Assembly (NCBI GenBank): GCA_014729135.1
Contig: WJKK01000001.1
Location: forward strand, 260,588 to 324,587
DNA from: a candidate division WWE3 bacterium
GTDB lineage: Bacteria > Patescibacteriota > WWE3 > UBA101185 > UBA10185
Reading direction: 5' to 3'
DNA: 64,000 bases
Of the stretch, positions 15,901 to 49,750 are shown piece after piece (positions within the stretch are counted from its first letter, which is position 1; each line of letters starts with the position of its first letter). The position numbers and the translations under genes were made by a program. The notes beneath the pieces were generated by a model. It ran no database searches, was not told the DNA's origin, and saw only the letters and a list, made by a program, of their open reading frames with translations.

Positions 15901-15938
15901 GGTAGAATTTTACCAGAAACGTTTTAACAAGTTAGAAT

Positions 15939-16787: not shown

Positions 16788-16797
16788 CTAAGAGTAT

Positions 16798-16883
16798 CCG
16801 GGGATACCAAAGTGGTCAACTGGGGCGGTCTGTAAAACCGCTGGCTTTTGCCTACGCTGGTTCGAATCCAGCTCCCCGGACCA
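16798..16883 (+). tRNA. tRNA-Tyr (anticodon GUA), long variable arm, CCA encoded
   Basis: Acceptor ccgggga/tccccgg; anticodon stem gcggt/accgc with loop CUGUAAA; variable arm tggcttttgcctacgctgg; T-arm gctgg-ttcgaat-ccagc. Confidence 0.8.
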
Positions 16884-16893
16884 ATTTAGAACT

Positions 16894-17976: not shown

Positions 17977-17981
17977 GCTGT

Positions 17982-18452
17982 ATGTGGACTTTTGAAAAAA
18001 TAACCTCACTTTTGAGGAGAAGAGGTATTGCTTTTGAAGAAATTCACTTTATGGATGACGGAGCCGTTTCGGCCCGTGCTGCAGATACATCAAAAAACAA
18101 TAACTATGATCCTGACAAGGCTATCAAAACCCTAGTTGTTGTTTCGGGTGACTTCTTGTACGGTGTTGTATTGCGCGCAGATAGTCGCATCGACTCTATC
18201 AAGTTAAAAAAATTGATAGGGAAATGGAGTGTAGTTTCCCTAGATGCTTTAGAGGATTTGGGGTTTGTGCCCGGTGGAGTTAACCCTTTTGTTCTGGATT
18301 TTCCTGTCTTTGCGGATGCTGCAGTTTTGGATTTACCTTTTCTTAGCATGGGTGCCGGTAGTCGAACTAAAGGCATCAACGTTTCTGTATCTGAGTTTGA
18401 AAAAAACCTTGATTATAAAGTTATAGACATAAAGGAGAATGTAAGTACATGA
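17982..18452 (+). CDS. YbaK/ProX-family aminoacyl-tRNA deacylase (trans-editing protein)
   Basis: 156 aa; the KTLVVVSGD...FVPGGVNPF pattern is typical of the YbaK editing domain; it sits directly upstream of tyrS. Confidence 0.6.
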   Translation: MWTFEKITSLLRRRGIAFEEIHFMDDGAVSARAADTSKNNNYDPDKAIKTLVVVSGDFLYGVVLRADSRIDSIKLKKLIGKWSVVSLDALEDLGFVPGGVNPFVLDFPVFADAAVLDLPFLSMGAGSRTKGINVSVSEFEKNLDYKVIDIKENVST

Positions 18453-19582
18453 CTACAAAAGAGAAGTTTAATTTAATTGAGCGTAACACTGAAGAAGTAA
18501 TTATGCCCGAGGAGTTAAAAGGGCTTTTGGATGCAGAGGAAAAGCTTAAGCATTACATTGGTTTCGAGATTTCCGGAAAAATACATTTAGGAACTGGTCT
18601 AATGTGTATGGGTAAAGTAAAAGATTTTATGGAGGCTGGTGTTGAGTGTACGATTTTTTTGGCAGACTGGCATACTTGGATAAACGATAAGTTGGGGGGA
18701 GATATGGAGACAATCCAGGAGATTGCTGTCGGCTATTTTAAGGAGGGTTTGAAAGCCTCCTTGAAAGCCCTCGGAGGCGATCCCGAAAAACTGAATTTTG
18801 TTTTGGGAAGTGAGCTTTACCACAACAATGATGCGTATTGGGCTACCGTTATTGAAGTGTCTAAGAACATAACTTTGTCTCGGAATTTGCGCAGTATCTC
18901 TATTATGGGACGCGAGGAGGGTGAAGGAGTGGATTTTGCTAAATTGATTTATCCACCCATGCAAGTTGCGGATATTTTTGCACAAGGGATTACCTTAGCG
19001 CATGCGGGCATGGATCAGCGTAAGGCCCATGTAGTTATGCGTGACGTTGCGGACAAACTCACTATTTGTCCTGCAAGGAACTCTTTGGGGAAGAAGATCA
19101 AACCCTTAGCAGTGCATCATCCCCTTCTTCTAGGTTTACAGAAACCTCCTATGTGGCCTGTTCCAAAAGAAAAATTGCGTGATGTATGGGCTTCTGCAAA
19201 AATGAGCAAGTCCAAGCCCAAATCTGCTGTTTTTATTACGGATTCTCCTGATGAGATACGGGAAAAGATTCTGGATGCTTTTTGTCCTCAGAACAATGCG
19301 GAGTTTAACCCTGTTTTAGATTGGGTAAAGCGCCTTGTTTTTATGAGCCCTTCGACGATTTTTGAAGTGGATCGCGAAGAAAGGTTTGGGGGTAAAATTT
19401 CTTTTAGCTCTTTTGCGGAAGTAGAAGACGCTTTTGTTTCAGGAGATTTACATTCGCAGGATTTAAAAAGAGCCCTGGCCGAATTTTTGGTAGTTTTGTT
19501 GGAACCTGTTAGGGAGCACTTTGATCTTTCGGAGAATAAAAAGTTATTAGAGCGTATGAACGACTTAGCGATTACTCGTTAG
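18449..19582 (+). CDS. tyrS: tyrosine--tRNA ligase, archaeal/eukaryotic type
   Basis: Near-collinear with Methanocaldococcus TyrRS: FNLIERNTEEV, GFEISGKIHLG (HIGH-like) and KMSKSKP (KMSKS); 377 aa. Confidence 0.85.
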   Translation: MTTKEKFNLIERNTEEVIMPEELKGLLDAEEKLKHYIGFEISGKIHLGTGLMCMGKVKDFMEAGVECTIFLADWHTWINDKLGGDMETIQEIAVGYFKEGLKASLKALGGDPEKLNFVLGSELYHNNDAYWATVIEVSKNITLSRNLRSISIMGREEGEGVDFAKLIYPPMQVADIFAQGITLAHAGMDQRKAHVVMRDVADKLTICPARNSLGKKIKPLAVHHPLLLGLQKPPMWPVPKEKLRDVWASAKMSKSKPKSAVFITDSPDEIREKILDAFCPQNNAEFNPVLDWVKRLVFMSPSTIFEVDREERFGGKISFSSFAEVEDAFVSGDLHSQDLKRALAEFLVVLLEPVREHFDLSENKKLLERMNDLAITR

Positions 19583-33884: not shown

Positions 33885-33977
33885 ATGGATCCGCTGGGCT
33901 GGTGTGTGGTTGGGTTTGTCTTTGTGATTGTAGGAGTTGTGGGCTATGCCCGCACCGTTCTGGGCTCCTCGAGTTAG
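33885..33977 (+). CDS. small hydrophobic peptide (30 aa) in a GC-rich mini-island
   Basis: SD agggggtgagg 6 nt upstream of ATG; MDPLGWCVVGFVFVIVGVVGYARTVLGSSS has one TM helix. Confidence 0.3.
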   Translation: MDPLGWCVVGFVFVIVGVVGYARTVLGSSS

Positions 33978-33987
33978 GAGGTGGGTG

Positions 33988-34104
33988 ATGGGGATCGGTA
34001 TTGGCATCGGCGTTGGCATTTTGGTGCTCGGTTTCGCGATTCTTGTGGTGACCCGTGGTCGCGAAGCGAGCGAGGAGACCGCCGAAATGTTTCGGAATCG
34101 GTGA
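33988..34104 (+). CDS. small hydrophobic peptide (38 aa) in a GC-rich mini-island
   Basis: SD aggaggtgggtg immediately upstream; MGIGIGIGVGILVLGFAILVVTRGREASEETAEMFRNR has a Gly-zipper TM helix and a charged tail. Confidence 0.3.
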   Translation: MGIGIGIGVGILVLGFAILVVTRGREASEETAEMFRNR

Positions 34105-34219: not shown

Positions 34220-35989
34220 ATGACAGAACCAAAAACATTCCCTGGTAAACCCAAAACCACCTGGAACTTAGACCTCATAGGCAACACAACCCTCCAAAAA
34301 GTTCAAAAAGAAGCCAAGAAATTCATCGAAAAATGGAAAAAGCGCAAAGATTACCTCCAAAAACCCTCCATATTAAAAGAAGCTCTGGATGACTACAACC
34401 AATGGGAGGAAAAATACTCCATGGGAGGCGATGAAGCCTACAAACTGATACTAAAACTCACACTTGATCAAAACAACGCAAAATTAAAAGCTCAATACAA
34501 CAAACTTCATGAAAAATACATTGAACTCTACAACTCACTCCAGTTTTTTATGCTAAACATCTCAAAAATTCCGCCAAAGGAACAGCCAAAATTCCTAAAA
34601 GCACCGGAGCTTGCAAAATACCGTTACTTTTTAAAAGGTCAGTTTGAAATAGCTAAATACCTGCTTACCGAAAAGGAAGAGCGAATTCTAAACTTAAAAT
34701 CAAAAGTAGCCTTTGGCAATTGGGTGGACATGACAGAAAATCTTATTTCAAAAGAAACTCGTGACGGCAAAAGTTTCTCCGAAATCCTATCTGAAACAAG
34801 CGACCCTAATAAATCCAAGCGGGATAAAGCAGCAAAATGGCTAAATGAAATCTTTGAAAATCACATTGATCCGGGGGAGCATGAGTTAAATTCGGTTTTA
34901 GAAAACGCCAAAATTAATCAAAAGTTGCGCGGTTATAAGCGCCCTGATGAGCCTCGGCACGTTGGCGATGACATAGAAACCGAAGTAGTAGATGCTTTGC
35001 TTACGGCGGTAACTTCTCGTTATGACATTTCGCAAAAGTTTTATGAGTTAAAGGCTAAGCTTTTGGGCTTTGAGCAGCTGGAATATCACGAGCGCAATGT
35101 GCCTTATGGCAAGGCCGAGAAGGAGTATGAGTTTGAAGATGCTTTGGCACTTGTAAATGAGACTTTTTATGATTTGGATCCCGAGTTTGCCCAGTATTTT
35201 CATAACTATTTTAAGCAAGGTCAATTTGATGCCTTCCCCAAAAAAGGAAAAAGTTCAGGTGCAGCTTGCTTTTCCGGTTTAAAAACCCAGCCGATTTATA
35301 TCTATTTAAACTTCACAAAAAAGCTTAGAAACGTTACTACAATAGCGCATGAGATGGGACATGCAATTCATAGCGAGTTGGTTTTTAAGTCGCAGCCGGC
35401 TATTTATGCAGGCACTTCTTTGGCAACGGCAGAAACGGCTAGCACTTTAATGGAGGATTTTGTTGTTCAACGGATTCTGCATGACGCCGATGATGAGTTG
35501 AAGCTGGCACTCCAAATGGAGCAGCTTAATGATTCGGTTTCTACAATTCAGCGTCAAATTGCTTGTTATAAGTTTGAGCAAGAGCTTCATGAGAGTTTTC
35601 GCAGGGAGGGCTATCTTTCCAAGGAGCAAATTGGGGAGCTTTTTCAAAAGCACATGGCTGCTTATATGGGGGATTTTGTGGAGCAGTCAAAGGGTTCGCA
35701 AAATTGGTGGCTTTATTGGAGTCATATTCGCCGTCACTTTTATGTTTATTCTTATGCCAGCGGGCTTTTAATTTCTAAGTCGCTGCAAAAGCGTGTTAAG
35801 GAGACTCCGGAGTTTATAAAGGAGGTTAAGGAGGTTTTAGCTTTAGGTACTTCAAAATCCCCTAAGGATGCGTTTTTGGAGATAGACATTGACATTTCTA
35901 ATCCTGATTTTTGGTTGCAGGGTTTAAAGGAGCAGTCGCAGCTTTTAGATGACACTTGGACATTAGCGGAAAAACTTGGCAAAATATAG
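34220..35989 (+). CDS. pepF: oligoendopeptidase F (M3B family)
   Basis: HEMGHAIH zinc motif; ~590 aa M3B architecture. Confidence 0.85.
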   Translation: MTEPKTFPGKPKTTWNLDLIGNTTLQKVQKEAKKFIEKWKKRKDYLQKPSILKEALDDYNQWEEKYSMGGDEAYKLILKLTLDQNNAKLKAQYNKLHEKYIELYNSLQFFMLNISKIPPKEQPKFLKAPELAKYRYFLKGQFEIAKYLLTEKEERILNLKSKVAFGNWVDMTENLISKETRDGKSFSEILSETSDPNKSKRDKAAKWLNEIFENHIDPGEHELNSVLENAKINQKLRGYKRPDEPRHVGDDIETEVVDALLTAVTSRYDISQKFYELKAKLLGFEQLEYHERNVPYGKAEKEYEFEDALALVNETFYDLDPEFAQYFHNYFKQGQFDAFPKKGKSSGAACFSGLKTQPIYIYLNFTKKLRNVTTIAHEMGHAIHSELVFKSQPAIYAGTSLATAETASTLMEDFVVQRILHDADDELKLALQMEQLNDSVSTIQRQIACYKFEQELHESFRREGYLSKEQIGELFQKHMAAYMGDFVEQSKGSQNWWLYWSHIRRHFYVYSYASGLLISKSLQKRVKETPEFIKEVKEVLALGTSKSPKDAFLEIDIDISNPDFWLQGLKEQSQLLDDTWTLAEKLGKI

Positions 35990-40735: not shown

Positions 40736-41227
40736 TTGATTAAAATTTACGGAGGAAATATGTCCGATACTGTCTACATAACAAAAGAAGGTTTAGAAAA
40801 ATTAAAGAAACAACTTACGGAACTCAAGGAAGAGCGTCGTCCGGCTGTTGCCAAAAGGATTAAAGAGGCAAGAGAGATGGGTGATATTTCCGAGAATGCC
40901 GAGTATGATGCTGCACGTCAGGAGCAGGCCTTTATTGAAGGTAAGATCTCGGAATTAGAGGAAGTTATTAAGGATGCTGAGGTAGTTGAGGAAGGTGCTA
41001 ATGGAGGCGATGGAGTTGTTCGTGTAGGCGCCAAGGTAACGGTGCATATTGAGGGTGAGGAAGAGACGTTTCATTTGGTAGGTGCTCATGAGGCTAATCC
41101 TATGGAGAACAAGATTTCGCATGAGTCTCCTTTGGGTGCTTCTTTGATGGGCAAAAAGGTTGGGGATAGCTTTGAGGTTGAAGCTCCTATTGGGAAGTTG
41201 ATTTATAAGATTAAGGCTGTTGAGTAG
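40736..41227 (+). CDS. greA: transcription elongation factor GreA
   Basis: MGDISENAEYDAARQEQAFIEGKISELE plus C-terminal FKBP-like domain; 163 aa. Confidence 0.85.
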   Translation: MIKIYGGNMSDTVYITKEGLEKLKKQLTELKEERRPAVAKRIKEAREMGDISENAEYDAARQEQAFIEGKISELEEVIKDAEVVEEGANGGDGVVRVGAKVTVHIEGEEETFHLVGAHEANPMENKISHESPLGASLMGKKVGDSFEVEAPIGKLIYKIKAVE

Positions 41228-41267
41228 GTTTTGTCTTAAGGGATTTTGTTGATTCCCTAAGTGTGTG

Positions 41268-41945
41268 TTAGATACTCTTCTGAAGCTGATTTAATCCCAG
41301 TTGCAAATCCTTTTTATCAATAATAAACGTCAACTCTGTTGCAGTGGAAACAACCTCAATAAGATTGATATTTTTAAGAGCCATTCTACGCATTAATCCG
41401 TACATAACATTGGGAATTTTTAAACAGCTTAGATCAAATTTTACTGTAATTCCCACCAAATCCTCCTTGTAATAGATAGTTTTTTTGTCCTTCAGAGCCT
41501 CTTTAAACTCAGCTAGCACCGAACTTTCAGCAACTATAGTAATCTCATTGATTCCCTGAGTGACCGTGACATAGGTTTTATTGTCCACATTTGTTTCTTT
41601 GTATATGTCTCGGATTCTCCTTGAAGTCTCCTCCGTCCTCTCATAGCTTATCCCTTCTAGATTGGAATGCACCGCAAGACTTTGAATTATGTTTTCTGTG
41701 GGAACCTTGTACGGAGGTATAGTGTCAATATACCTATTTACGGCTACAACTATGGATCCTACTTTAACCTCTTTCATTAAGGTTTCCTCTATTTCCGGCC
41801 TTATCTCACGAGCATAAGCTGAAGCATTTAGAAGTCCTCTAGAGGCCAGTGCTATAACTAAATCATCCCTTTTTATTATTTCTTCCACTATTTCTGAGAT
41901 TTTTATCATGTTTGTATTATAGCAAAACTGTATAAAATTATACAA
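41268..41945 (-). CDS. hypothetical protein with tandem ACT-like regulatory domains
   Basis: Two beta-alpha-beta-beta-alpha-beta-like segments reminiscent of aspartokinase regulatory ACT domains; weak. Confidence 0.3.
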   Translation of the reverse strand: MYNFIQFCYNTNMIKISEIVEEIIKRDDLVIALASRGLLNASAYAREIRPEIEETLMKEVKVGSIVVAVNRYIDTIPPYKVPTENIIQSLAVHSNLEGISYERTEETSRRIRDIYKETNVDNKTYVTVTQGINEITIVAESSVLAEFKEALKDKKTIYYKEDLVGITVKFDLSCLKIPNVMYGLMRRMALKNINLIEVVSTATELTFIIDKKDLQLGLNQLQKSI

Positions 41946-42012
41946 ACGTATAATTAATGTACATTAAGATTAAAAATTTTACATGATCTCTTTATTATCC
42001 TAAAATCCTGCC

Positions 42013-42285
42013 ATGCTATTTATCTCGTTATCATTAATAATTGGTTTTACGTTGGGGCTTGTGTTTAGGGGAAGATTCAGTAACCTTGAATTTTTGGAAA
42101 AGGTCATGGACCTATTGGTCCTACTACTTATTTTCTCTATAGGCATGAATTTAGGTTCCAACACCGTTTTGTTGGAGAATTTCTCCACACTTGGATTTCA
42201 GAGTATCCTTTTGGCTCTCTTCTGCTCCGCAGGAAGTGTCCTCTTAGTATTTCTTTTTACACTTAGGAGAAATAAGAATGTTTAA
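42013..42285 (+). CDS. LysO/DUF340-family membrane protein, small subunit
   Basis: 90-aa three-TM protein overlapping a 197-aa paralogous-fold membrane protein, the typical split DUF340 pair. Confidence 0.4.
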   Translation: MLFISLSLIIGFTLGLVFRGRFSNLEFLEKVMDLLVLLLIFSIGMNLGSNTVLLENFSTLGFQSILLALFCSAGSVLLVFLFTLRRNKNV

Positions 42286-42871
42286 AACAGGTACTGCTTT
42301 CTTATTGGGGACATTTGGAGGTTATTTGCTGTTGCGCAATTTTTCCCTTGATATAAGTTCCGCCATTTCTTACCTAGTTGCTCTTTTGCTGTTTTTTGTT
42401 GGTTTTTTGGTTGGAAATGATAGTAGGATTCTCGGAGATTCTTCCTGGAGAGTTCGTGATTATTTGGTGCCTTTGTTTTCCTTGATGGGTTCTGTCCTTG
42501 GGGGTTTATTAGTTGCTGCCCTTATTGGATCATTGCCTTTTTCGGATGCACTTCTCGCCTCTTTGGGAATGGGTTATTACAGTGTTCCTAGCATAATAGT
42601 TACCGCTCGTTTAAGTACCTCTATTGGTTCTTTAGTTCTGCTTACAAACATTTTACGTGAGGTGCTGGTTTTACTCTTTACTCCTCTTTTGGTTAAGAAA
42701 TTAAATAGGTTAGCACCCATTGCTCTTGGAGGTACTACAACAATGGATGTTTCGCTGCCCATAATTACAGAGTATTCGGGAAAGGACTATGTGGTGCCTG
42801 CTTTTATAAATGGAGTTGTTTTAACGGTAATAGTTCCATTGTTAGTAAGTTTAACCGTTTCTTTAATTTAA
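42278..42871 (+). CDS. LysO/DUF340-family membrane protein, large subunit
   Basis: 197-aa six-TM protein; ATGA-type overlap with the upstream partner. Confidence 0.4.
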   Translation: MFKTGTAFLLGTFGGYLLLRNFSLDISSAISYLVALLLFFVGFLVGNDSRILGDSSWRVRDYLVPLFSLMGSVLGGLLVAALIGSLPFSDALLASLGMGYYSVPSIIVTARLSTSIGSLVLLTNILREVLVLLFTPLLVKKLNRLAPIALGGTTTMDVSLPIITEYSGKDYVVPAFINGVVLTVIVPLLVSLTVSLI

Positions 42872-42880
42872 GGAGTTTTT

Positions 42881-43306
42881 ATGAAACAGGATTTTAGTAA
42901 AAAGATTAGTATAGTTATTAGCAATGAAATTCCCGACTGGAAGGCTATGAATGCTGTAGGCCATATAGCCGCTTATTTCGGTAATAAAATGGATGCAGTA
43001 TTTGATACGGGGGAGTCTTTTGTTGCACAGGATGGTGTGGCAATACCCCGTAACTCTCAATATGGCATTGTCGTTCTACAGGCGGATCAGGAGGGCTTGA
43101 ACGAATGGGCTTTAGAAATGCGTTCTGTCACCGATGTCCAGACAATGTTTTTTGTTAAAGAGATGATTGATACGGGGGATGATATTGAGTTGCAGCAAAT
43201 GTTGGATGTTCAAGACTTCAAGGATATTATCTTTTATGGAGTGGGTCTTTTTGGAGGGAATGAGATTTTAAGGGGTTATACAAATGCTTTCAAACTCTGG
43301 AGTTAG
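42881..43306 (+). CDS. hypothetical cytoplasmic protein
   Basis: 141 aa with no recognised motif; SD-adjacent to the previous gene. Confidence 0.35.
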   Translation: MKQDFSKKISIVISNEIPDWKAMNAVGHIAAYFGNKMDAVFDTGESFVAQDGVAIPRNSQYGIVVLQADQEGLNEWALEMRSVTDVQTMFFVKEMIDTGDDIELQQMLDVQDFKDIIFYGVGLFGGNEILRGYTNAFKLWS

Positions 43307-43330
43307 GATTTGCCTGAGTAAGTGAATAAG

Positions 43331-43359
43331 TTGTCTCCTCTGCTTTTTCATGCTAGAAT
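43331..43359 (+). promoter_or_regulatory. sigma70-like promoter driving the second T-box leader
   Basis: TTGTCT (43331-43336), 17 nt spacer, TAGAAT (43354-43359). Confidence 0.45.
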
Positions 43360-43365
43360 CCTGTC

Positions 43366-43675
43366 ATTGAAAAATAAATACTAAAAGCTATGATGAAGAG
43401 AGTACCAATAGGAAACGGTTTTACAGAGAGCGGTGCAAAGGTGAGAGTGCCGCATTTACGCCCTTTTGGGAACAAAGCTTCGGAGCTGCTGGAAGAAATT
43501 GCGTTTCGCGCAAGAGTAGAACCGTGCCGGGAGAGCCCGTTATAGCCGAAAACCTTGCTAGAGGTTGTAAGGCCTGTCTGGAAACGGATAGGTAAAAAGA
43601 GGTGGTACCGCGACAATAATCGCCCTCATTTGGATCTAAGTATATGCTTGGGTTTAGGTGAGGGCGTTTTTTGTT
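43366..43675 (+). promoter_or_regulatory. T-box riboswitch leader; specifier tentatively AAA (Lys)
   Basis: Stem I parallels the glyQS Stem I: K-turn AUGAUGA, GAAG, AGAGAGUA, upper stem ccaatagg/ccttttgg, loop GAACAAAG, CUUC. F-box CCCGTTATA (43536-43544), T-box GGTGGTACCGCGA (43601-43613), terminator cgccctca...tgagggcg plus T-tract (43621-43672). Confidence 0.65.
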
Positions 43676-43720
43676 GCCCTAATAAATAACGGGTTACATT
43701 TATAAGCAAGGAGGTTCGAG

Positions 43721-44908
43721 ATGGGGAAGCAAGTTTTGGTGATGGGGGTTAGGCGGCAATATCAGTTCGACGGAGATTGGGGAGACTGGCTTCGGCTCGG
43801 TGTTCGGCGTCTTCTGACTTTACAGTCAGGAGATGTTGCAGTCCTGCCGGAGATTTGGGGCATTCCCGAGTATGTGGAGCACTTGCAGGAGGTTTGGGGT
43901 ATCAATTTGGAGGTCCTGTGGGTGAGCGGTAGGTTTTACCTCCTGGATAGCGCTATTCTGGAGACCCCGAGGGTTCTCGGGCGTCTTCAGGAACTGGGAG
44001 GACAAGGTGCAGTTTTTGTGCTGTACGATAGTTCGACGTCACACTTCCAGTCTTGGTGGCGATTGATGCCGCAGGAAGCTCGTTTGTGTGGAGAGACTTT
44101 GGAGTGGGGTAGTCGATGGAACACCAAGAAGTGGTTGTACCGAGACGCTAGGAATCCAGAGCAACCTTCGATTGCCGAACGGTTGGATATTCCGGTACTC
44201 TCAGGCTACAATGCAGGATCCGTCGCGGAGCTGTTGAAGGCTTGGGACCTAATAGGATGTGGCTCGGTTATCATCAAGCCGTTGACAGCGGCGTTTGGTG
44301 ACGGTTTGGTGGTTGCGCATGAACGGAGTGATTTGGAGTCCTATACTTTCCCACTCGGTTCGGTGGGTGTGGAGGAGTATGTGGAAGGTTATCCCCAGCC
44401 TTGGTCCACCCACTGGGTAGGGGAGGAGCTGCTTGGACCTCCGACTTCCCAGCTTCTTCACGGGAGCACTGCCGTGGGAAACGTCACTCCAGGGGATTTT
44501 GACGCGGCGATGCAGGGGCAGCTTCTGGCGTTGACCCGTGAGTTTGTTCGGGCAGCCCAGCCCCGCGGCTATGGGGGCCTCAACGGGTTGATCGACGCCG
44601 AAGGGGTACCCCGCGTGACGGATGCCAATTGTAGGGAGACGGGTGTTTGCTCGACGCTCGTTTTCCGTGACCGTTATTGTCCCGGGGCGGTGACGGTAAA
44701 CAAGAAGTTGGGGAGACCTAACATGTCCGTTGGAGATGCTTGGCAGTGTCTTCAAGCGGCAGGCTTAGCATTCGACATCTCGGCGCGACGAGGAATAGCC
44801 CTCCAGGGGTGGTTACCCTCGATGTGGAGTCGCATGACCTGCGCCGCAGACACGAGGCAAGAGGCCTTAGAGCTGCTCAATGCAGCAAAGGAGGCTTTAG
44901 GTATGTAA
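43721..44908 (+). CDS. ATP-grasp-fold enzyme (RimK/LysX-like ligase family); GC-rich, likely acquired
   Basis: Strong SD aaggagg. VIIKPLTAAFGDGLVV (central ATP-grasp lysine strand), VGVEEYVEGY (E-x-Y-I/V hinge), LIDAEGVPRVTDANCRETG (Mg-binding Asp/Asn loop). Local GC (estimated by eye) is well above the flanks. Confidence 0.5.
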   Translation: MGKQVLVMGVRRQYQFDGDWGDWLRLGVRRLLTLQSGDVAVLPEIWGIPEYVEHLQEVWGINLEVLWVSGRFYLLDSAILETPRVLGRLQELGGQGAVFVLYDSSTSHFQSWWRLMPQEARLCGETLEWGSRWNTKKWLYRDARNPEQPSIAERLDIPVLSGYNAGSVAELLKAWDLIGCGSVIIKPLTAAFGDGLVVAHERSDLESYTFPLGSVGVEEYVEGYPQPWSTHWVGEELLGPPTSQLLHGSTAVGNVTPGDFDAAMQGQLLALTREFVRAAQPRGYGGLNGLIDAEGVPRVTDANCRETGVCSTLVFRDRYCPGAVTVNKKLGRPNMSVGDAWQCLQAAGLAFDISARRGIALQGWLPSMWSRMTCAADTRQEALELLNAAKEALGM

Positions 44909-44927
44909 TGTAAAAAGTTGTGTTGAC

Positions 44928-44976
44928 GCGATGGGAGGGTATGGGCCGGTTGGATATCGTCCAACCCTCCTATCGC
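44928..44976 (+). terminator. long imperfect GC-rich hairpin closing the second GC-rich block
   Basis: gcgatgggagg...[ggttgg-atatcgt-ccaacc]...cctcctatcgc nested stems 20 nt after the ATP-grasp stop. Confidence 0.4.
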
Positions 44977-44996
44977 GCATCAATTGTAAGGTAAAA

Positions 44997-46091
44997 ATGA
45001 TAAACAGACAAAGATTAATAAATACATTTTTAGAAATAGTTCAGATTGATAGCCCTTCGGGTGCGGAAGGAGCTATGGTGGAATACGTAACTTCTTTTCT
45101 ACACGCGTTAGGAGTGCGCCATGTAGTGGATTCTTTTGGCAACGTTATTGCTTATACTGAAGGTTCCGGAGGGCCTCTCTTGTTAAGTGCGCACTTAGAT
45201 ACAGTTGAGCCCGGAAGAGCTATTGCTCCTGTCATTGAAGACGGCTTTATCAGAAGTTCCGGCGACACCATTTTAGGCGCTGATAACAAGGTTGCAGTAG
45301 CCTCTCTGTTGGAGTTGATACGTACACTGACGGAAGCATCTGTAACCGATATTCCTTCTTTAGAGGTTATTTTTACGCTTTCAGAGGAAGTTGCGAATTT
45401 GGGAGCTGTAAATCTTGATTATTCTCTTCTGAGTGCGCGAGAAGGTTTTACTTTTGATAGTGGAAGTTCTTTGGGTACAGTTATTACCGACTCTCCTTTC
45501 TATAATCGGTTTGATATAGTTGTTAATGGTGTTGCCTGCCATGCAGGACATCCGGAAAGAGGCCTAAATGCTTTAAGTTTGGTGGTTAATGCGCTATCTC
45601 AAATTACTCTGGGTCAGACCGGTCTTGAAACCACTTGCAACATAGGTTTGATTGAGGGGGGAGTTGCACGCAATATTGTCCCCGGGCAAATTACTCTCCG
45701 AGGAGAAGTACGCAGTTTTGTAGAGAGTGTCCTAGAGGAAATGTGCACGGATATTAGTAGCGTTTTTCAGAAAGTAGTTGCAGAAAATGAGGGCTCCGTG
45801 GAAATAGAGATTGTTCGCGAAAATAGTGGCTTCAGTTTTTCTGCTGATGACCCTCTGTTGAGATACACTATGCGAATTCTAGAAGATTTAGAGCTTTCCC
45901 CAACCCCGCGTGTTTCTACGGGTTGTTATGATGCTAACATATTTCAGGAGCATGGGATTTGTGTTCTAAACTTGGGTAATGGTTCCGTGGATAATCACAC
46001 AATTAGGGAAAAGATTTCTGTGGTAGACTTAGAAATGCTGGCAAACCTTGTATATAGTTTAGTGATGGGTTTTAATAGGTACAGGAATTAA
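44997..46091 (+). CDS. M20-family metallopeptidase (PepT/tripeptidase-like); the ORF-track start 44931 lies inside the upstream hairpin, so ATG 44997 is preferred
   Basis: MINRQRLINTFLEIVQIDSPSG, HLDTVEPG and the dimerisation-domain layout of M20B peptidases. Confidence 0.7.
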   Translation: MINRQRLINTFLEIVQIDSPSGAEGAMVEYVTSFLHALGVRHVVDSFGNVIAYTEGSGGPLLLSAHLDTVEPGRAIAPVIEDGFIRSSGDTILGADNKVAVASLLELIRTLTEASVTDIPSLEVIFTLSEEVANLGAVNLDYSLLSAREGFTFDSGSSLGTVITDSPFYNRFDIVVNGVACHAGHPERGLNALSLVVNALSQITLGQTGLETTCNIGLIEGGVARNIVPGQITLRGEVRSFVESVLEEMCTDISSVFQKVVAENEGSVEIEIVRENSGFSFSADDPLLRYTMRILEDLELSPTPRVSTGCYDANIFQEHGICVLNLGNGSVDNHTIREKISVVDLEMLANLVYSLVMGFNRYRN

Positions 46092-46105
46092 AAGGAGTTT
46101 ATAAA

Positions 46106-47581
46106 ATGTCGACAATAGCAGATCTTCGTAAGGTAAGGCTTGAACAACTGGAGAAAATAAAAAAGCTTGGTTTAAATCCCTATCCTGCTGAATCCAAAAA
46201 AGACTATCCAAATAAAGAAATTCTAGATAATTTTGAGGATCTTGAAGGCAAGAGCGCAAATATTACAGGGCGCATAACTTCAATACGTGAACATGGAGCT
46301 TTAGTTTTCATAGATTTAGCCGATGAGTCCGGTGTAATTCAACTTTATATTAGAGAGGACACACTAAAAGCAACAGATCTCCAAGATCAGATTTTAGGTT
46401 TTGACCATATAAGCCTTTTAGGTACAGGTGATTTTATTCAAGCTTTTGGAGAAGTTACAAAAACAAAGTCGGGTCAAATTTCCCTAAAAGTAGAATCACT
46501 AAAACTTCTCTCAAAGTCCTTGCGACCAATCCCGGAAGAACTAAAAGATATTGAAGAGCGTTACCGCAAACGTTACCTGGATTTTCTACTAAATCCCCGT
46601 TCAAAGGAAATCTTGGATACGCGTTGGAAAATAGAGGAAGAAACACGTAAATTCCTTTGGAATCAAGGATTTAAAGAGGTGGAAACTCCCATTTTGCAGA
46701 CGCTTTATGGAGGTACTAATGCCGAACCTTTTACAACACATTTTAATGCTTTAAATACCGATTTTTATCTTCGTATAGCCCCAGAACTTTATTTAAAGCG
46801 TTTAATAGTGGGAGGTTACGAAAAAGTTTTTGAAATAGCCCGCAACTTTAGAAACGAGGGCATAGATCAAACGCACTTTCCTGAATTTACAATGCTTGAA
46901 TGGTATGAGGCTTATGCTGATTACCATCGGGTTATGGATTTAGCGGAGGCTTTGACAAAGCATCTGGTCTTGAAATTAACAGGCGGAACAACAATAAAAG
47001 TTAATGATCAAGAAATAGATATTAGCGGTACTTGGCCACGTATTCCTGTAGAGGATTTGGCGAAGGAACACCTGGGCATTGAGTGGGATTCCATAGCGGA
47101 TGATGAAATTAAGGATCTGTTGAATAAGCACAAAATTCAAGTTGCAGGTGTTTGGGATCGGGAAAAAGCTTTGTTTACTTTGTATGATCATCTGGTTACG
47201 CCTAAATTAATAGAGCCTGTTTGGGCAATAGATTATCCGCAGTCTGTAAGTCCTTTATCTAAGGCGCATAGAACCAAGGAAAAGCGTGCAGAAAGATTTG
47301 AAGGTTACATTGGAGGTGTGGAGATTTTTGACGGATGGAGTGAGATTGTTTCAGGTCTTGAACAACGTCGTCGTTTTGAGGTGGAGCAGCGAAACATGAA
47401 AGAGGGCGATAAGGAAGCCATGCCTTTAGATGAGGAGTTTATTGAAGCCTTAGAGTACGGTTGCCCTCCTTTGGGTGGAATTGGTTTTGGGATTGACCGC
47501 TTGGTTATGTTTTTAACGGATACTTGGGGTATAAAAGATGTTGTAGCCTTCCCGATTTTAAAGCCTCGCTCCGATAGTTAA
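46106..47581 (+). CDS. lysS: lysine--tRNA ligase (class II)
   Basis: N-terminal OB-fold anticodon-binding domain; class II motifs (FRNEGID, LGGIGFGIDRLVM); 491 aa. Confidence 0.9.
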   Translation: MSTIADLRKVRLEQLEKIKKLGLNPYPAESKKDYPNKEILDNFEDLEGKSANITGRITSIREHGALVFIDLADESGVIQLYIREDTLKATDLQDQILGFDHISLLGTGDFIQAFGEVTKTKSGQISLKVESLKLLSKSLRPIPEELKDIEERYRKRYLDFLLNPRSKEILDTRWKIEEETRKFLWNQGFKEVETPILQTLYGGTNAEPFTTHFNALNTDFYLRIAPELYLKRLIVGGYEKVFEIARNFRNEGIDQTHFPEFTMLEWYEAYADYHRVMDLAEALTKHLVLKLTGGTTIKVNDQEIDISGTWPRIPVEDLAKEHLGIEWDSIADDEIKDLLNKHKIQVAGVWDREKALFTLYDHLVTPKLIEPVWAIDYPQSVSPLSKAHRTKEKRAERFEGYIGGVEIFDGWSEIVSGLEQRRRFEVEQRNMKEGDKEAMPLDEEFIEALEYGCPPLGGIGFGIDRLVMFLTDTWGIKDVVAFPILKPRSDS

Positions 47582-47637
47582 CCCCCTCTCTAAAAAACTG
47601 GCCAAAAACATATATAATTACAACGAAAGGAAAAAAG

Positions 47638-47859
47638 ATGTCAAAAAAACTAGACCCAAAAGACAAAAATTACGTCGACAAACTAGCTGACAACCTTGAA
47701 GGTGTAGGATTTTCCGGCTCCGAAGAATTAGGCGCTGCCGTAAAAGAAGTAGCAGAAGCCAACGGATATTCCTCCAAAAAAGGACGCGGAAAATTTTTCA
47801 CCACAATAAAAAGACTTTTAGGATTACCTGTAAAATCAAAGGACGAAGCTAATGATTAA
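47638..47859 (+). CDS. small hypothetical protein
   Basis: 73-aa ORF with an SD; no recognised motif. Confidence 0.3.
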   Translation: MSKKLDPKDKNYVDKLADNLEGVGFSGSEELGAAVKEVAEANGYSSKKGRGKFFTTIKRLLGLPVKSKDEAND

Positions 47860-48397
47860 TCGTGAGGAAGCTCAAGCACTTTTGGAAGAGCATGTAACGG
47901 ACGAATATCAGCTGCTGCACGCTTTTATGGTGGCCTCTGCAATGGAAGCTTACGCTGAAGAGTTGGGTGAAGATGCTGACGTTTGGTTTCTGACGGGACT
48001 TTTGCATGACCTGGATTACGAGGAATTCCCTGAAGAGCACCCTATGCGGTCGATTCACTGGTTATCCGATGAGGACGTTCCGGAAGAGCTTTTGCATGCA
48101 ATTGAAGCGCACGCCTATTTAAGAACCGGTGTTGAACCTGAAACTAATCTGGCAGCAGCGCTAATTGCGGTGGATGAGCTTTCCGGCTTTATGTACGCTT
48201 ATTCGCTAATGAGACCTTCCGGTTTTGAAGGCATGAAAGCATCCAAAGTGGTTAAAAAGCTGAAAGATAAAGCCTTTGCAGCAAAGATCTCTCGTGAGGA
48301 TATTTATTATGGCGTTGAAAAATTTGAGGTTGATATGAAGGAGCATATTAACTTTTTGCTGGGGGTTTTTAACGATTTACCGGAGTTGGAAAAATAA
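47852..48397 (+). CDS. HD-domain phosphohydrolase
   Basis: H...HD motif (LLHDLDYEEF) and downstream His/Asp ligands; 181 aa. Confidence 0.6.
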   Translation: MINREEAQALLEEHVTDEYQLLHAFMVASAMEAYAEELGEDADVWFLTGLLHDLDYEEFPEEHPMRSIHWLSDEDVPEELLHAIEAHAYLRTGVEPETNLAAALIAVDELSGFMYAYSLMRPSGFEGMKASKVVKKLKDKAFAAKISREDIYYGVEKFEVDMKEHINFLLGVFNDLPELEK

Positions 48398-48403
48398 ACT
48401 TTC

Positions 48404-49750
48404 ATGCTTGATATCAGCTTTATTAGAGAAAATCCGGAGGAGGTTAAGCAGGCTCTGTATGATAGGCAAGTTGAGCTTGATTTGGATGCGTTTTTAAATC
48501 TGGACTCTCGTCGTAGAAGTTCTCTGCAGCATTTGGAAACTAAGCGAGCCCTGCGAAATTCTTTATCTGAGGCAATTGCAGAGGTGGCCGATTCGGAGAG
48601 AGCTTCTTTAATAGAGGAGGCGCGTCAAGTGAAAAACGATATTAAGGACTTGGAAAAAGAGTTTGACGTTTTAGACAAGGAATATCATGAGACTCTAATT
48701 CGAATTCCCAATGTTCCCTCTAAAGAAATGCCTGTTGGTAAGGGCGAAGAGGATAATGCTGTTTTAAAAGTATGGCTGCCTAAAGAGGGCTATTTAGATG
48801 TTGAAGGCGCTGATTACACCGATGTTTCTTACATGCCGCAAACTTCTTTTAAATACAAGGATCATGTTGAACTTGGTAAGGATCTGGATCTAATTGATGT
48901 TGAGCAGAGTGCTATTGTTTCCGGGAGTCGCTTTTACTATTTGAAAAATGAGGCGGTTTTGCTGCAGGAGGCGGTTTTTGCCTTGTTGAAAAACAAGCTT
49001 TTAAAGGAAGGTTACATGCCCATGATTTCTCCTCTGTTGGTAAAGGAAAAGTCTTTGTTTGGTACAAGTCATTTTCCGGAAGGGCGCGATCAAATTTATA
49101 AAATAGAAAGCTTTAATGTTGAGGATAAAAATGAGCTTTATTTAGTGGGGTCTTCGGAGCCTTCAAACTTTTCATATTTCATGGATAAAAAGTTTTCGGT
49201 TGAAGAGCTGCCTATTAAGGTTTTTGTGGAGAGCACTTGTTTTAGGAGTGAGGTAGGCTCTTGGGGGAAGGATGTTCGTGGAATTAAGCGGGTGCATCAG
49301 TTTGATAAGGTGGAGATGAATACTATTTGTACTCCTGCTAAGGCTCGCGAAGTTTTTGATGAGTACTTGGCAATTAACGAGTGGATGCTGCAGGAGCTAA
49401 AGCTTCCTTATCGAATTATTAGCAAGTGTACGGGGGATGCCGGTTATAACGCGTCGCATCTTCAGTTTGATTGGGATTATTGGCGTCCGGGTGAGCGCGA
49501 GTTTATGGAAGGTGGAACGGATACTTGGGCTACTGATTATCAGGCCCGTCGTTTAGGGATTCGCTATGAGGCTGATGATGAAGCTGCTTATGTGCATACG
49601 GTTAACGACACGGGAGCAACTACGCGAGTTATAATTGCAATTTTGGAAAACTATCAGCAGGAGGACGGCTCCATTTTGATCCCGGAGGCCTTGCACCCTT
49701 ATGTGGGTGGACTTGAAAAAATCTCTCATGCTAAGATTAAGCGGAAATAA
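48404..49750 (+). CDS. serS: serine--tRNA ligase
   Basis: N-terminal coiled-coil tRNA-binding arm and class II core motifs; 448 aa. Confidence 0.9.
   Translation: MLDISFIRENPEEVKQALYDRQVELDLDAFLNLDSRRRSSLQHLETKRALRNSLSEAIAEVADSERASLIEEARQVKNDIKDLEKEFDVLDKEYHETLIRIPNVPSKEMPVGKGEEDNAVLKVWLPKEGYLDVEGADYTDVSYMPQTSFKYKDHVELGKDLDLIDVEQSAIVSGSRFYYLKNEAVLLQEAVFALLKNKLLKEGYMPMISPLLVKEKSLFGTSHFPEGRDQIYKIESFNVEDKNELYLVGSSEPSNFSYFMDKKFSVEELPIKVFVESTCFRSEVGSWGKDVRGIKRVHQFDKVEMNTICTPAKAREVFDEYLAINEWMLQELKLPYRIISKCTGDAGYNASHLQFDWDYWRPGEREFMEGGTDTWATDYQARRLGIRYEADDEAAYVHTVNDTGATTRVIIAILENYQQEDGSILIPEALHPYVGGLEKISHAKIKRK

What the first reader, a model, noticed from the sequence alone, without database searches (positions are those of the whole stretch)
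43700..44980. Second GC-rich cargo: an ATP-grasp enzyme between T-box leader 2 and pepT-lysS
The 395-aa ORF with a strong SD is again roughly 57% GC (estimated by eye) in a ~40% GC context. It spawns antisense ORF artefacts and ends at a long imperfect GC hairpin (44928-44976). Its motifs fit an ATP-grasp amino-acid ligase. This repeats the layout at leader 1 exactly: promoter, T-box, GC-rich foreign-looking gene, hairpin, then native genes ending in the cognate aaRS. Two independent occurrences suggest a recurrent insertion mechanism, or a selective advantage for placing acquired genes under tRNA-charging control. I am not aware of this being described.
Basis: partly seen in the sequence, partly recalled or inferred. 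Interest (0 to 1): 0.85.

Follow-up and report, generated by a model that had tools for sequence, protein, structure and literature searches.

The report
Lysine-controlled ATP-grasp ligase, not cargo
The GC-rich gene is a real ATP-grasp ligase that, with a tripeptidase and lysyl-tRNA synthetase, forms a lysine-starvation-switched operon also found in other uncultured bacteria, so it is a long-standing operon member rather than recently inserted foreign DNA; why it stays GC-rich is unexplained.

Summary

A 31%-GC contig carries greA, an orthologous Lys T-box, the ATP-grasp gene, a hairpin, an M20 peptidase and lysS in the same order. The ATP-grasp/hairpin/M20 unit recurs in three further lineages. 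There, and in a fourth lineage that has the ATP-grasp gene without M20, the T-box is replaced by short leader ORFs with clustered Lys codons and overlapping antiterminator/terminator structures.

The ATP-grasp gene has higher GC3 than its M20 neighbour in 5 of 5 lineages, so the offset is a family trait. Island 1 (Tyr T-box, sulfatase-like gene, hairpin, MBL, tyrS) is conserved in the same way.

The window's ATP-grasp and M20 proteins are lysine-poor (2.0% and 0.8%, against a mean of 8.0%).

Best reading: a lysine-starvation module analogous to S. aureus hmrA/ldmS. The substrate and the cause of the GC offset remain open.

The parts
43331..43359 (+). Promoter-like site TTGTCT-17 nt-TAGAAT with a TG extension, about 20 nt upstream of the T-box leader
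   Evidence: Consensus scan, 9 of 12 matches. The second candidate at 43367-43394 overlaps the conserved 5' end of the T-box and is less likely. Function is inferred.
43381..43630 (+). T-box leader 2. The specifier loop reads GAA-C-AAA-G with the Lys codon AAA at 43474-43476. The T-box core GGTGGTACCGCG lies at 43601-43612
   Evidence: Rfam RF00230, 89.8 bits (gathering score 93), E 9.2e-20, full-length model match. The specifier was read from that alignment. It aligns with the T-box of L084 upstream of the orthologous gene.
43621..43676 (+). T-box terminator: a 20-pair stem followed by TTTTTTGTTG. Its 5' arm overlaps the 3' strand of the antiterminator
   Evidence: Terminator scan and sequence.
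43708..43714 (+). Shine-Dalgarno sequence AAGGAGG of the ATP-grasp gene
   Evidence: Read directly from the sequence.
43721..44908 (+). ATP-grasp ligase gene, 395 aa, PGM1/BesA clade (pre-ATP-grasp, ATP-grasp and PGM1_C-like regions). GC 56.5%, Lys 2.0%, and all 8 Lys codons are AAG
   Evidence: - Exhaustive phmmer found 115 cluster representatives, the best at 44-48% identity.
- 25 of 42 aligned members hit PF02655 ATP-grasp_3 and 6 hit PreAtp-grasp.
- AlphaFold pLDDT 95.2.
- Invariant K136, K186 and N303; D301 and R305 conserved in at least 90% of members.
- Composition.
44924..44979 (+). Intercistronic GC-rich hairpin between the ATP-grasp and M20 genes, with no U-tract
   Evidence: -38.9 kcal/mol, z -6.2. 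A strong hairpin occupies the same spacer in L084, L081, L089 and L090. The structure is conserved and the sequence is not.
44997..46091 (+). M20 PepT-like tripeptidase gene, 364 aa, with only 3 Lys (0.8%). The start at 44997 is preferred over the ORF-list start at 44931, which lies inside the hairpin
   Evidence: - Pfam M20 and M20_dimer.
- TIGR01883 PepT-like at 224.8 bits, below its cutoff of 274.
- PDB 3gb0 Peptidase T, E 3e-59.
- The N-terminus MINRQRL aligns with the orthologue starts.
- Lys purged: 1 of 23 orthologue-Lys columns retained.
46106..47581 (+). Class II lysyl-tRNA synthetase gene lysS, starting 14 nt after the M20 stop codon
   Evidence: NF001756, 557 bits.
42013..43306 (+). 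Upstream neighbours in this genome only: two LysO lysine-exporter ORFs (42013-42285 and 42278-42871) and a DUF2000 gene (42881-43306)
   Evidence: Pfam PF03956 at E 1e-50 and 3e-8; PF09391 at E 3e-18. Membership of the same functional unit is inferred from adjacency only.

Best explanation
The gene encodes a PGM1/BesA-type ATP-grasp amide-bond ligase. It is the leader-proximal gene of a lysine-starvation operon in a candidate division WWE3 (CPR) bacterium. The operon order is: promoter, Lys T-box (specifier AAA), ATP-grasp, hairpin, PepT-like M20 tripeptidase, LysRS.

Proposed mechanism. When tRNA-Lys is uncharged it pairs with the specifier and the T-box bulge and stabilises the antiterminator. 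RNA polymerase then reads through into the three genes (inferred from T-box anatomy). The two accessory enzymes are almost free of lysine, so they can be made when lysine is scarce.

Conservation. The leader/ATP-grasp/hairpin/M20 unit is an old, conserved module. In other lineages the same unit sits behind Lys-codon leader-peptide attenuators instead of a T-box. This independently ties the module to lysyl-tRNA supply.

Likely role (inferred, not shown). The ligase and the tripeptidase handle a lysine-containing peptide or amide as part of lysine acquisition or sparing in an auxotrophic cell. This would be a lysine counterpart of the S. aureus hmrA (M20D)/ldmS (ATP-grasp L-Asp-L-Met ligase) pair.

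GC content. The high GC is a conserved trait of this gene relative to its neighbours, maintained in situ by an unknown force. It is not a mark of recent import.
For: Identity:
- AlphaFold pLDDT 95.
- Foldseek agrees. The ATP-grasp motif D301-x-N303-x-R305 and K186 are conserved.

Regulation in the window:
- T-box at E 9e-20 with specifier AAA and a terminator.

Conserved synteny:
- L084/L085: greA, T-box (91.8 bits), ATP-grasp, M20, lysS-HD. The two Lys T-boxes align along Stem I, Stem III and the antiterminator.
- ATP-grasp plus M20 also occur in L081/82, L089 and L090-92.
- Pairwise identities of ATP-grasp and M20 correlate (r 0.76 over 10 pairs). Both proteins recover the same two clades.
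- All five spacers between the two genes carry a strong hairpin.

Independent Lys sensing:
- Leader ORFs: MQFVAKKSKSKKTSGGG (L081/82), MIFVVATIAKKAKKRSKGG... (L086), MIGVVKMFKGKYEPR (L089) and MYTITLTNSKQKKCHLSG... (L090/91). Each lies between a promoter-like sequence read by eye and a terminator.
- With a ribosome modelled at the first Lys codon, a leader segment pairs with 8-13 of the 10-14 nt of the terminator 5' arm. With the ribosome at the stop codon, the terminator forms.

Lysine sparing:
- Window ATP-grasp has 2.0% Lys and M20 0.8%, against a window mean of 8.0% (sd 3.4).
- The window M20 keeps K in 1 of 23 columns where at least 2 orthologues have K. L084, L089 and L090 keep 50-58%.

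GC offset is a family trait:
- GC3 of ATP-grasp minus M20 is +0.27 (window), +0.21 (L084), +0.15 (L081), +0.29 (L089) and +0.12 (L090).
- In L084 the NNG codon fraction is 0.35 in ATP-grasp against 0.08-0.12 in other genes.

Functional analogue:
- The hmrA/ldmS operon is controlled by CodY/CymR or an S-box (PMC9486568).
Against: - The two contigs with the most similar LysRS (L001 at 68%, L002 at 57%) have greA directly followed by lysS, with no T-box, ATP-grasp or M20. The module is therefore patchy and could move as a unit.
- The window copy has the amino-acid make-up of a protein from a GC-rich host (GARP 0.31, FYMINK 0.15), like L081 and L086. The L084 copy is host-like.
- Within the close clade, ATP-grasp identities (window-L081 42%, window-L084 33%) do not mirror M20 identities (54%, 53%).
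- Two family members (L086, L093) lack the M20 neighbour.
- Lysine depletion is strong only in the window lineage.
- T-box 2 scores just below Rfam's gathering threshold.
- No substrate, transcript or expression data exist. A ligase that consumes an amino acid under starvation for it is paradoxical; the LdmS authors note the same problem.
- No mechanism for a persistent local GC excess has been demonstrated.
Confidence: 0.62

Rival explanations
1. One reading: a recently acquired foreign gene was inserted between a pre-existing native T-box and native pepT-lysS. A recurrent mechanism would place acquired genes under tRNA-charging control.
For: - Sharp GC step at the 3' end, from 0.59 to 0.35 within about 200 nt.
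- Highest GC3 in the window.
- GC-type amino-acid composition.
- A second GC-rich gene sits behind T-box 1.
- The island-1 protein is not Tyr-depleted, unlike the rest of its operon.
Against: - Same gene in the same position behind an orthologous T-box in L084/85.
- The ATP-grasp/hairpin/M20 unit is present in five lineages.
- Island 1 is conserved in L094/95.
- No boundary repeats, integrase genes or tRNA target sites were found at the edges.
- The hairpin is a conserved operon feature, not an island scar.
Confidence: 0.07
2. The ATP-grasp gene is ancestral in this position. In the window lineage (and perhaps repeatedly elsewhere) the resident allele was replaced in situ by a copy from a GC-richer organism. 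Alternatively, the whole leader/ATP-grasp/M20 module is laterally mobile and only partly ameliorated.
For: - The module is absent from L001 and L002 on the same greA...lysS-HD-serS backbone.
- The window ATP-grasp is closer to copies from GC-rich contigs (P0001 44%, P0002 48%) than to L084 (33-35%), while M20 is equidistant.
- All three codon positions are GC-shifted in the window copy.
- The family is rare: 115 clusters among 1.8 billion representatives.
Against: - The M20 next door has host-like GC3 in every lineage, so the pair did not arrive together recently.
- Replacing only the ATP-grasp gene precisely between a native T-box and native M20 needs homologous flanks, meaning a close relative as donor, and such a donor would not be GC-rich (inference).
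- A positive offset in 5 of 5 lineages with host GC of 31-59% would require five imports, all from GC-richer donors.
- At 33-44% protein identity, an old import would be fully ameliorated at synonymous sites (established expectation).
Confidence: 0.22
3. The ligase is a secondary-metabolite or peptide-tailoring enzyme, like PGM1 or BesA. Its link to lysine would be only regulatory coincidence, and the M20 and LysRS genes would simply be downstream neighbours behind a partial terminator.
For: - The nearest solved structures are natural-product enzymes.
- Some family members are domains of proteins of 900-3200 aa.
- The distant member P0062 lies in an integrase/defence-like island.
- In L089 and L081 the intercistronic hairpin has a U-tail.
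Against: - Lysyl-tRNA-sensing leaders of two unrelated kinds precede the gene in six contexts.
- The M20 partner is retained in 5 of 7 contexts, with correlated divergence.
- The window proteins are purged of lysine.
- No other biosynthetic genes lie in the locus.
Confidence: 0.07
4. Assembly chimera or annotation artefact: the GC-rich stretch does not belong to this genome, or it is not a gene.
For: GenBank annotates only a 61-aa C-terminal fragment of this ORF (MBD3365997.1, GF360_01495). The exact 395-aa product is not on record.
Against: - The ORF is intact over 395 codons.
- It folds at pLDDT 95 and keeps its catalytic motifs.
- It sits on an 864-kb contig.
- It has the same neighbours as its homologues in independent assemblies.
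- The fragment annotation is best explained by a gene caller trained on AT-rich DNA (inference).
Confidence: 0.02

Closest known systems
PGM1 (pheganomycin peptide ligase, PDB 3wvq/3wvr), BesA (L-propargylglycine-L-glutamate ligase, 8yi6) and the Streptomyces ATP-grasp peptide ligase 8ynd
   Same: - Weak Pfam PreAtp-grasp and PGM1_C hits in the right order.
- Canonical ATP-grasp Lys and D-x-N-x-R motif.
   Different: - Only 16-18% sequence identity.
- About 40-60 residues shorter.
- Found in a reduced CPR genome in an operon with a tripeptidase and an aaRS, under tRNA-Lys control, not in an actinomycete biosynthetic cluster.
- Substrate unknown.
S. aureus hmrA/ldmS operon: M20D carboxydipeptidase plus the ATP-grasp L-Asp-L-Met ligase LdmS (PDB 7r8p; PMC9486568)
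   Same: - An ATP-grasp amino-acid ligase co-operonic with an M20 metallopeptidase.
- Switched on by starvation signals for the cognate amino acid: CodY/CymR or an S-box riboswitch there, a T-box or Lys leader peptide here.
   Different: - Different ATP-grasp clade and different M20 subfamily (M20D against PepT-like M20B).
- Reversed gene order.
- Lysine rather than methionine.
- An aaRS is part of the operon.
- The sensors read tRNA charging rather than SAM or Ile/GTP.
LysX/LysK of the LysW-mediated alpha-aminoadipate lysine pathway (RimK-type ATP-grasp plus M20 [LysW]-lysine hydrolase)
   Same: An ATP-grasp ligase and an M20 hydrolase that are both linked to lysine supply.
   Different: - The M20 matches PepT (E 3e-59), not LysK (NF003443 hit limited to residues 32-96).
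- No LysW, LysZ, LysY or LysJ genes in the locus.
T-box leaders (RF00230) upstream of aaRS and amino-acid supply genes
   Same: Full-length match to the model, with specifier loop, T-box core and competing antiterminator/terminator.
   Different: - Occurs in a CPR (WWE3) genome.
- The first regulated gene is an uncharacterised ligase, not the aaRS.
- Score 89.8 bits is 3 bits under Rfam's gathering cutoff.
- I found no paper in the held library on T-boxes in CPR/Patescibacteria.
Classical ribosome-mediated leader-peptide attenuators (trp, his, leu, thr and pheA operons; from general knowledge)
   Same: In the related loci L081, L086, L089 and L090: a promoter, a 15-26 codon ORF with clustered regulatory codons, and an antiterminator that competes with an intrinsic terminator.
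   Different: - The regulatory codons are lysine (AAG).
- The regulated genes are a ligase and a peptidase rather than a biosynthetic pathway.
- Not present in the window itself.
- Predicted only.

Membership tests
ATP-grasp superfamily | Three-domain alpha/beta fold that grasps ATP between two domains | tested here: met
   [not shown]
ATP-grasp superfamily | Conserved ATP-binding Lys and the Mg/acyl-phosphate motif (D/E)-x-N-x-R | tested here: met
   K186 (VIIKPL) and N303 are invariant. D301 and R305 are conserved in at least 90% of 42 family members. The motif aligns to E-I-N-x-R of 3df7 in the profile-PDB alignment. Catalytic competence itself is not testable here.
PGM1/BesA-type peptide ligases (pre-ATP-grasp, ATP-grasp, PGM1_C) | N-terminal pre-ATP-grasp domain and PGM1-type C-terminal domain flanking the ATP-grasp core | tested here: met
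   - Structure superposes on PGM1, BesA and 8ynd over 355-370 residues.
- Pfam PF18604 E 0.017 at residues 29-95 and PF18105 E 0.048 at residues 340-385 for the window protein, both below cutoff.
- PF18604 reaches E 3e-8 in relatives.
PGM1/BesA-type peptide ligases | Ligation of an amino-acid carboxylate to the amine of a peptide or amino acid | not testable with these tools
   No substrate information. Inferred from the fold only.
RimK/LysX-type ATP-grasp (amino-group carrier protein pathway) | RimK-like fold, with LysW carrier and LysZ/Y/J genes alongside | tested here: not met
   [not shown]
T-box leader (RF00230) | Score at or above the Rfam gathering threshold | tested here: not met
   89.8 bits against a threshold of 93. 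The E-value is 9.2e-20 and the match covers model positions 1-219, so this is a near miss rather than an absence.
T-box leader (RF00230) | Stem I specifier loop with GAA, a codon and a following purine, matching the regulated aaRS | tested here: met
   GAA-C-AAA-G at 43470-43477 (alignment). AAA is Lys and the operon ends in lysS. L084 has GAA-AAG-A in the same place (read by eye).
T-box leader (RF00230) | T-box core UGGN bulge in an antiterminator that competes with an intrinsic terminator | tested here: met
   GGUGGUACCGCG at 43601-43612. The terminator at 43621-43666 plus T-run shares CGCCCUC with the antiterminator 3' strand. tRNA binding is not testable here.
Horizontally acquired genomic island | Composition deviating from the host genome | tested here: met
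   GC 0.565 against 0.407. GC3 z +3.6, the highest of 63 ORFs.
Horizontally acquired genomic island | Absent from the same position in related genomes | tested here: inconclusive
   Present at the same position behind an orthologous T-box in L084/85. However, the whole T-box/ATP-grasp/M20 block is absent in L001 and L002. No close WWE3 relative could be retrieved.
Horizontally acquired genomic island | Mobility signatures at the borders (repeats, integrase, tRNA target) | tested here: not met
   No repeats are shared between the islands beyond the T-box core. No integrase or transposase ORF lies in 41000-49000. There is no tRNA gene at the borders.
Intrinsic terminator (for the hairpin at 44924-44979) | GC-rich stem followed by a U-tract | tested here: not met
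   The stem is strong, but the scan reports no terminator there and the following sequence is CATCAATTG. The orthologous hairpins in L089 and L081 do have U-rich tails.

The most novel reading that the evidence does not exclude
Candidate-phyla bacteria carry a previously undescribed lysine-starvation module: a PGM1-type ATP-grasp ligase, an intercistronic hairpin and a PepT-like peptidase, often followed by LysRS. Its sensor has been swapped during evolution between a Lys T-box and Lys-codon leader-peptide attenuators.

In this module, and in the parallel Tyr T-box operon, the leader-proximal gene is actively kept GC-rich and hairpin-bounded. The cause could be selection (for example transcript survival or translation when ribosomes are scarce) or biased gene conversion. 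Either way, a compositional 'island' that looks like horizontal transfer would in fact be a maintained feature of starvation operons.
Probability: 0.3. Interest if true: 0.8.

Novelty: new variant of a known kind. Interest (0 to 1): 0.58.

Why it matters
- It adds a new, uncharacterised enzyme family to the regulon of tRNA-sensing leaders: no Pfam or NCBIfam family model, only 115 clusters among 1.8 billion representatives, and only a 61-aa fragment annotated in GenBank.
- It shows the same gene module wired to two unrelated lysyl-tRNA sensors. That is unusually direct comparative evidence for a lysine-related function in organisms that cannot be cultured.
- It points to a possible lysine salvage or sparing route in auxotrophic CPR epibionts.
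- It provides a cautionary case: a GC-rich 'island' with sharp edges and a terminal hairpin can be an old, conserved operon member.
- If the GC3 excess is maintained by selection, it would be a new kind of constraint on synonymous sites linked to starvation-induced expression.

Tried and rejected
- The word-indexed homology search found nothing with the single protein and only one distant member with the profile. The exhaustive phmmer search was needed.
- Single-sequence AlphaFold was useless, at pLDDT 35.
- phmmer against PDB and NCBIfam gave no hits for the single protein.
- Both metagenome-contig scans (alignment A2, then the single protein) found no relatives. A2 was used because alignment A1 was too diverse for pattern design.
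- The afdb50 fold library was unavailable.
- The genome-contig scan with LysRS returned mostly distant phyla. Only L001 and L002 were useful.
- Rfam found no riboswitch upstream of the ATP-grasp gene in L081-83, L086-89 or L096. This led to finding the leader peptides instead.
- The search for shared boundary sequence between the two islands found only the T-box core.
- Population variation was uninformative, because replicate contigs are 99.3-100% identical.
- The context of the distant member P0062 (Desulfobacter, integrase/SIR2/HEPN neighbourhood) said nothing about the lysine clade.
- Expression-linked codon bias was rejected as the cause of the GC excess: GroEL and SecA in the window have GC3 of only 0.42-0.47.
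- Lysine avoidance was rejected as the cause: the equally Lys-poor M20 has host-like GC3 of 0.34.
- The 'rare codons stay charged under starvation' idea was considered. It is doubtful, because the offset keeps the same sign in GC-rich hosts (L081, L086) and the leader peptides use the same AAG codon as the gene.
- Literature searches found nothing on T-boxes in CPR/Patescibacteria, on Lys leader peptides for such a module, or on 8ynd.
Full report
**1. Observation**

The window is 40.7% GC. The ORF at 43721-44908 (+, 395 aa) is 56.5% GC, with GC1/2/3 of 0.62/0.47/0.61. The adjacent genes have GC3 of 0.31-0.41. Among 63 non-overlapping ORFs of at least 90 aa, mean GC3 is 0.380 (sd 0.064). This ORF is the extreme, at z about +3.6.

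- It has an AAGGAGG Shine-Dalgarno sequence 6 nt upstream of the ATG.
- Antisense ORFs of 168 and 70 aa overlap it.
- A hairpin at 44924-44979 folds at -38.9 kcal/mol (z -6.2) and has no U-tract.
- Upstream lies a full-length T-box at 43381-43630: 89.8 bits, E 9e-20, 3 bits under the Rfam gathering score. Its specifier loop reads GAA-C-AAA-G, where AAA is Lys. The core GGUGGUACCGCG and a terminator at 43621-43666 with a T-run are present.
- A promoter-like TTGTCT-17-TAGAAT lies at 43331-43359.
- Downstream are a PepT-like M20 peptidase and class II LysRS. The true peptidase start is 44997, judged from the orthologue N-termini.

**2. What the protein is**

Direct searches were nearly blind. Pfam gave only sub-threshold PreAtp-grasp and PGM1_C hits. 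NCBIfam and PDB sequence searches gave nothing. The word-indexed search of 5.8 billion proteins gave nothing.

An exhaustive phmmer search over 1.84 billion representatives found 115 clusters. The best were at 44%, 48% and 35% identity (P0001-P0003). The search also found a 61-aa fragment that is 100% identical.

- Of 42 aligned members, 25 hit PF02655 ATP-grasp_3.
- With this alignment AlphaFold gave pLDDT 95.2.
- K186, N303, D301 and R305 form the canonical ATP-grasp motif.

The protein is therefore a PGM1/BesA-clade amide ligase. It is not LysX/RimK-like, cyanophycin-synthetase-like or Ddl-like.

**3. Source and annotation**

The island-1 protein is 100% identical to GF360_01340 of a candidate division WWE3 bacterium, on an 864-kb contig. 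The 61-aa fragment is MBD3365997.1, GF360_01495, on the same contig. GenBank therefore annotates only the C-terminal 61 residues of this 395-aa gene. The full product is not on record.

**4. Synteny refutes recent cargo insertion**

The closest homologues sit in the same neighbourhood.

- L084/L085 (31-33% GC) carry greA, a T-box (91.8 bits), the ATP-grasp gene (P0003), M20 and lysS-HD. That T-box aligns with T-box 2 through Stem I, Stem III and the antiterminator. It carries a Lys codon (AAG, read by eye) in the specifier position.
- L081/82 (59% GC), L089 (45%) and L090-92 (40%) carry ATP-grasp followed by M20.
- L086-88 and L093 have the ATP-grasp gene without M20.

Pairwise identities of ATP-grasp and M20 correlate (r 0.76). 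Both proteins recover the clades {window, L084, L081} and {L089, L090}.

Each of the five spacers between ATP-grasp and M20 holds a strong hairpin of unrelated sequence. The hairpin is therefore a conserved operon element, not an island boundary.

**5. A second, independent lysine sensor**

Where there is no T-box, the upstream region holds three elements: a promoter-like sequence (read by eye), a short ORF with clustered Lys codons, and an intrinsic terminator. The leader ORFs are:

- MQFVAKKSKSKKTSGGG (L081/82)
- MIFVVATIAKKAKKRSKGGPLLPCRG (L086)
- MIGVVKMFKGKYEPR (L089)
- MYTITLTNSKQKKCHLSGRSLLS (L090/91)

Constrained folding gave a consistent result. With a ribosome footprint at the first Lys codon, a 3' segment of the leader pairs with 8-13 of the 10-14 nt of the terminator's 5' arm (-11.8 to -27.8 kcal/mol). 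With the ribosome at the stop codon, the terminator forms.

This is the classical attenuator design, tuned here to lysyl-tRNA. Two unrelated sensors of the same signal upstream of the same gene family are strong comparative evidence. They tie the module to lysine limitation.

**6. Lysine sparing**

The window ATP-grasp protein has 2.0% Lys, all eight codons being AAG. The M20 protein has 0.8% (3 of 364). The window mean is 8.0% with sd 3.4.

In the 23 alignment columns where at least two orthologues have Lys, the window M20 keeps Lys once. L084, L089 and L090 keep it in 50-58% of the corresponding columns.

The Tyr operon shows the same logic. MBL has 0% Tyr, the aminotransferase 1.1% and TyrRS 1.3%, against a mean of 3.7%. 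This fits proteins that must be made while the cognate amino acid is scarce. Cognate-amino-acid bias is a known phenomenon (from my own knowledge).

**7. The GC anomaly is a family trait**

GC3 of ATP-grasp minus GC3 of the adjacent M20 is positive in every lineage:

| Lineage | Offset |
|---|---|
| window | +0.27 |
| L084 | +0.21 |
| L081 | +0.15 |
| L089 | +0.29 |
| L090 | +0.12 |

- L086 is slightly positive and L093 negative, both measured against unrelated neighbours.
- In L084 the fraction of G-ending codons in two-fold A/G positions is 0.35 in ATP-grasp, against 0.08-0.12 elsewhere.
- Expression-linked codon bias does not explain the offset. GroEL and SecA have GC3 of 0.42-0.47.
- Lysine avoidance does not explain it either. 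The Lys-poor M20 has GC3 of 0.34.
- Recent joint import of the pair is excluded, because M20 is host-like everywhere.
- Five separate precise replacements of the ATP-grasp gene alone, always from GC-richer donors, is unparsimonious but not excluded.

In favour of replacement: the window copy has a GC-type amino-acid make-up (GARP 0.31, FYMINK 0.15). It is also closer to the copies from GC-rich contigs than to L084, whereas M20 is equidistant.

I regard the cause as unexplained. Candidates are selection on transcript structure or stability together with the 3' hairpin, biased gene conversion at a frequently exchanged locus, and repeated allelic replacement.

**8. Island 1 behaves the same way**

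L094/95 (37% GC) carry a Tyr T-box (104 bits; specifier UAC by eye) and a small ORF. These are followed by a sulfatase-like gene (57% identical, GC3 0.44 against 0.21-0.33 in neighbours), a long hairpin, MBL and tyrS.

It reflects conserved operon architecture, not repeated insertion. No sequence is shared at the island borders apart from the T-box core.

**9. Patchiness**

On the shared backbone greA...lysS-HD-serS, the block T-box/ATP-grasp/M20 is present in the window and in L084. It is absent in L001 (LysRS 68% identical) and L002 (57%).

The unit of gain or loss is thus the whole module including its sensor. It is not a gene slipped behind a resident T-box.

**10. Function**

What is shown: the fold, the catalytic motifs, the regulation signals, the conserved partnership and the lysine depletion.

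What is inferred: the ligase and the tripeptidase act on a lysine-containing peptide or amide to secure or spare lysine in an auxotrophic cell.

The closest working analogue is S. aureus hmrA/ldmS. That operon pairs an M20D peptidase with an ATP-grasp L-Asp-L-Met ligase under Met/Cys-starvation control. Its authors note the same paradox of a ligase that consumes the scarce amino acid (PMC9486568).

In this genome, lysine-exporter (LysO) and DUF2000 genes lie directly upstream of the T-box. This adds to the lysine-homeostasis flavour of the locus.

**11. Verdict**

The foreign-cargo and insertion-mechanism interpretation is not supported.

What is there is a new variant of a known kind: a starvation-switched ligase/peptidase/aaRS operon. 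It has two features of real interest. The lysyl-tRNA sensor has been swapped between lineages, and an unexplained GC excess of the leader-proximal gene is conserved across lineages.

Noticed in passing
window 43721-44908: GenBank (candidate division WWE3 bacterium, 864-kb contig) annotates only a 61-aa C-terminal fragment of this 395-aa gene, as MBD3365997.1 / GF360_01495. The full-length product is absent from the 15-billion-protein collection. The likely cause is a gene caller penalising the GC-rich ORF.
   Followed up: partly
L081 287-340; L082 169-222; L086 2752-2832; L089 2639-2686; L090 328-399: Short leader ORFs with clustered AAG Lys codons (for example MQFVAKKSKSKKTSGGG) lie between a promoter and an intrinsic terminator, upstream of ATP-grasp homologues. 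Constrained folding supports a Lys-responsive ribosome-mediated attenuator.
   Followed up: yes
window 44997-46091: The PepT-like M20 peptidase has only 3 Lys in 364 residues (0.8%), the lowest in the window. Its orthologues have 3.7-8.7%. It has lost Lys in 22 of 23 positions where orthologues have it.
   Followed up: yes
window 14214-19582: The Tyr T-box operon contains a GC-elevated sulfatase-like gene (14917-15828), a hairpin (about 15851-15903), MBL, a tRNA-Tyr gene (16798-16883) inside the operon, an aminotransferase, a YbaK-like editing-domain protein and archaeal-type TyrRS. Most of its proteins are Tyr-poor (0-1.9% against a mean of 3.7%), but the sulfatase-like protein is not (4.3%).
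   Followed up: partly
window 16500-16530: The MBL-fold gene of the Tyr operon is split into 193-aa and 85-aa ORFs in the same frame by a (GTAA)5 tetranucleotide repeat that creates an in-frame TAA at 16518-16520. The orthologue in L094 is one 273-aa gene. It could be a pseudogene, a contingency repeat or a split gene.
   Followed up: no
window 33885-34104: This is a third GC-rich patch (about 0.55 GC). It holds two small hydrophobic ORFs of 30 aa (33885-33977) and 38 aa (33988-34104), each with a strong GGAGG-type ribosome-binding site. A hairpin follows, just upstream of an M3 oligopeptidase F gene (34220-35989). There is no Rfam match. GC-rich patches in this genome are therefore not confined to T-box operons.
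   Followed up: partly
window 42013-43306: Two LysO lysine-exporter ORFs and a DUF2000 gene lie immediately upstream of the Lys T-box promoter. They are absent from the corresponding place in L084.
   Followed up: no
L086 1370-2671: In the P0004 context, the gene directly upstream of the Lys leader peptide and ATP-grasp gene is MnmA, the 2-thiouridylase that modifies the wobble base of tRNA-Lys, tRNA-Glu and tRNA-Gln. The downstream partner is a CobA/BtuR-like protein instead of M20.
   Followed up: no
L084 12435-14642; window 46106-47581 and 47852-48397: LysRS is fused to an HD-domain protein in L084 (735 aa) and in L002. In the window, the HD protein is a separate gene two ORFs downstream of lysS.
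   Followed up: no
L098 8001-9257: A distant family member (P0062, 21% identity) in an uncultured Desulfobacter genome lies among SIR2, HEPN and three tandem integrase genes. This suggests the wider family also occurs in mobile or defence-type islands.
   Followed up: no
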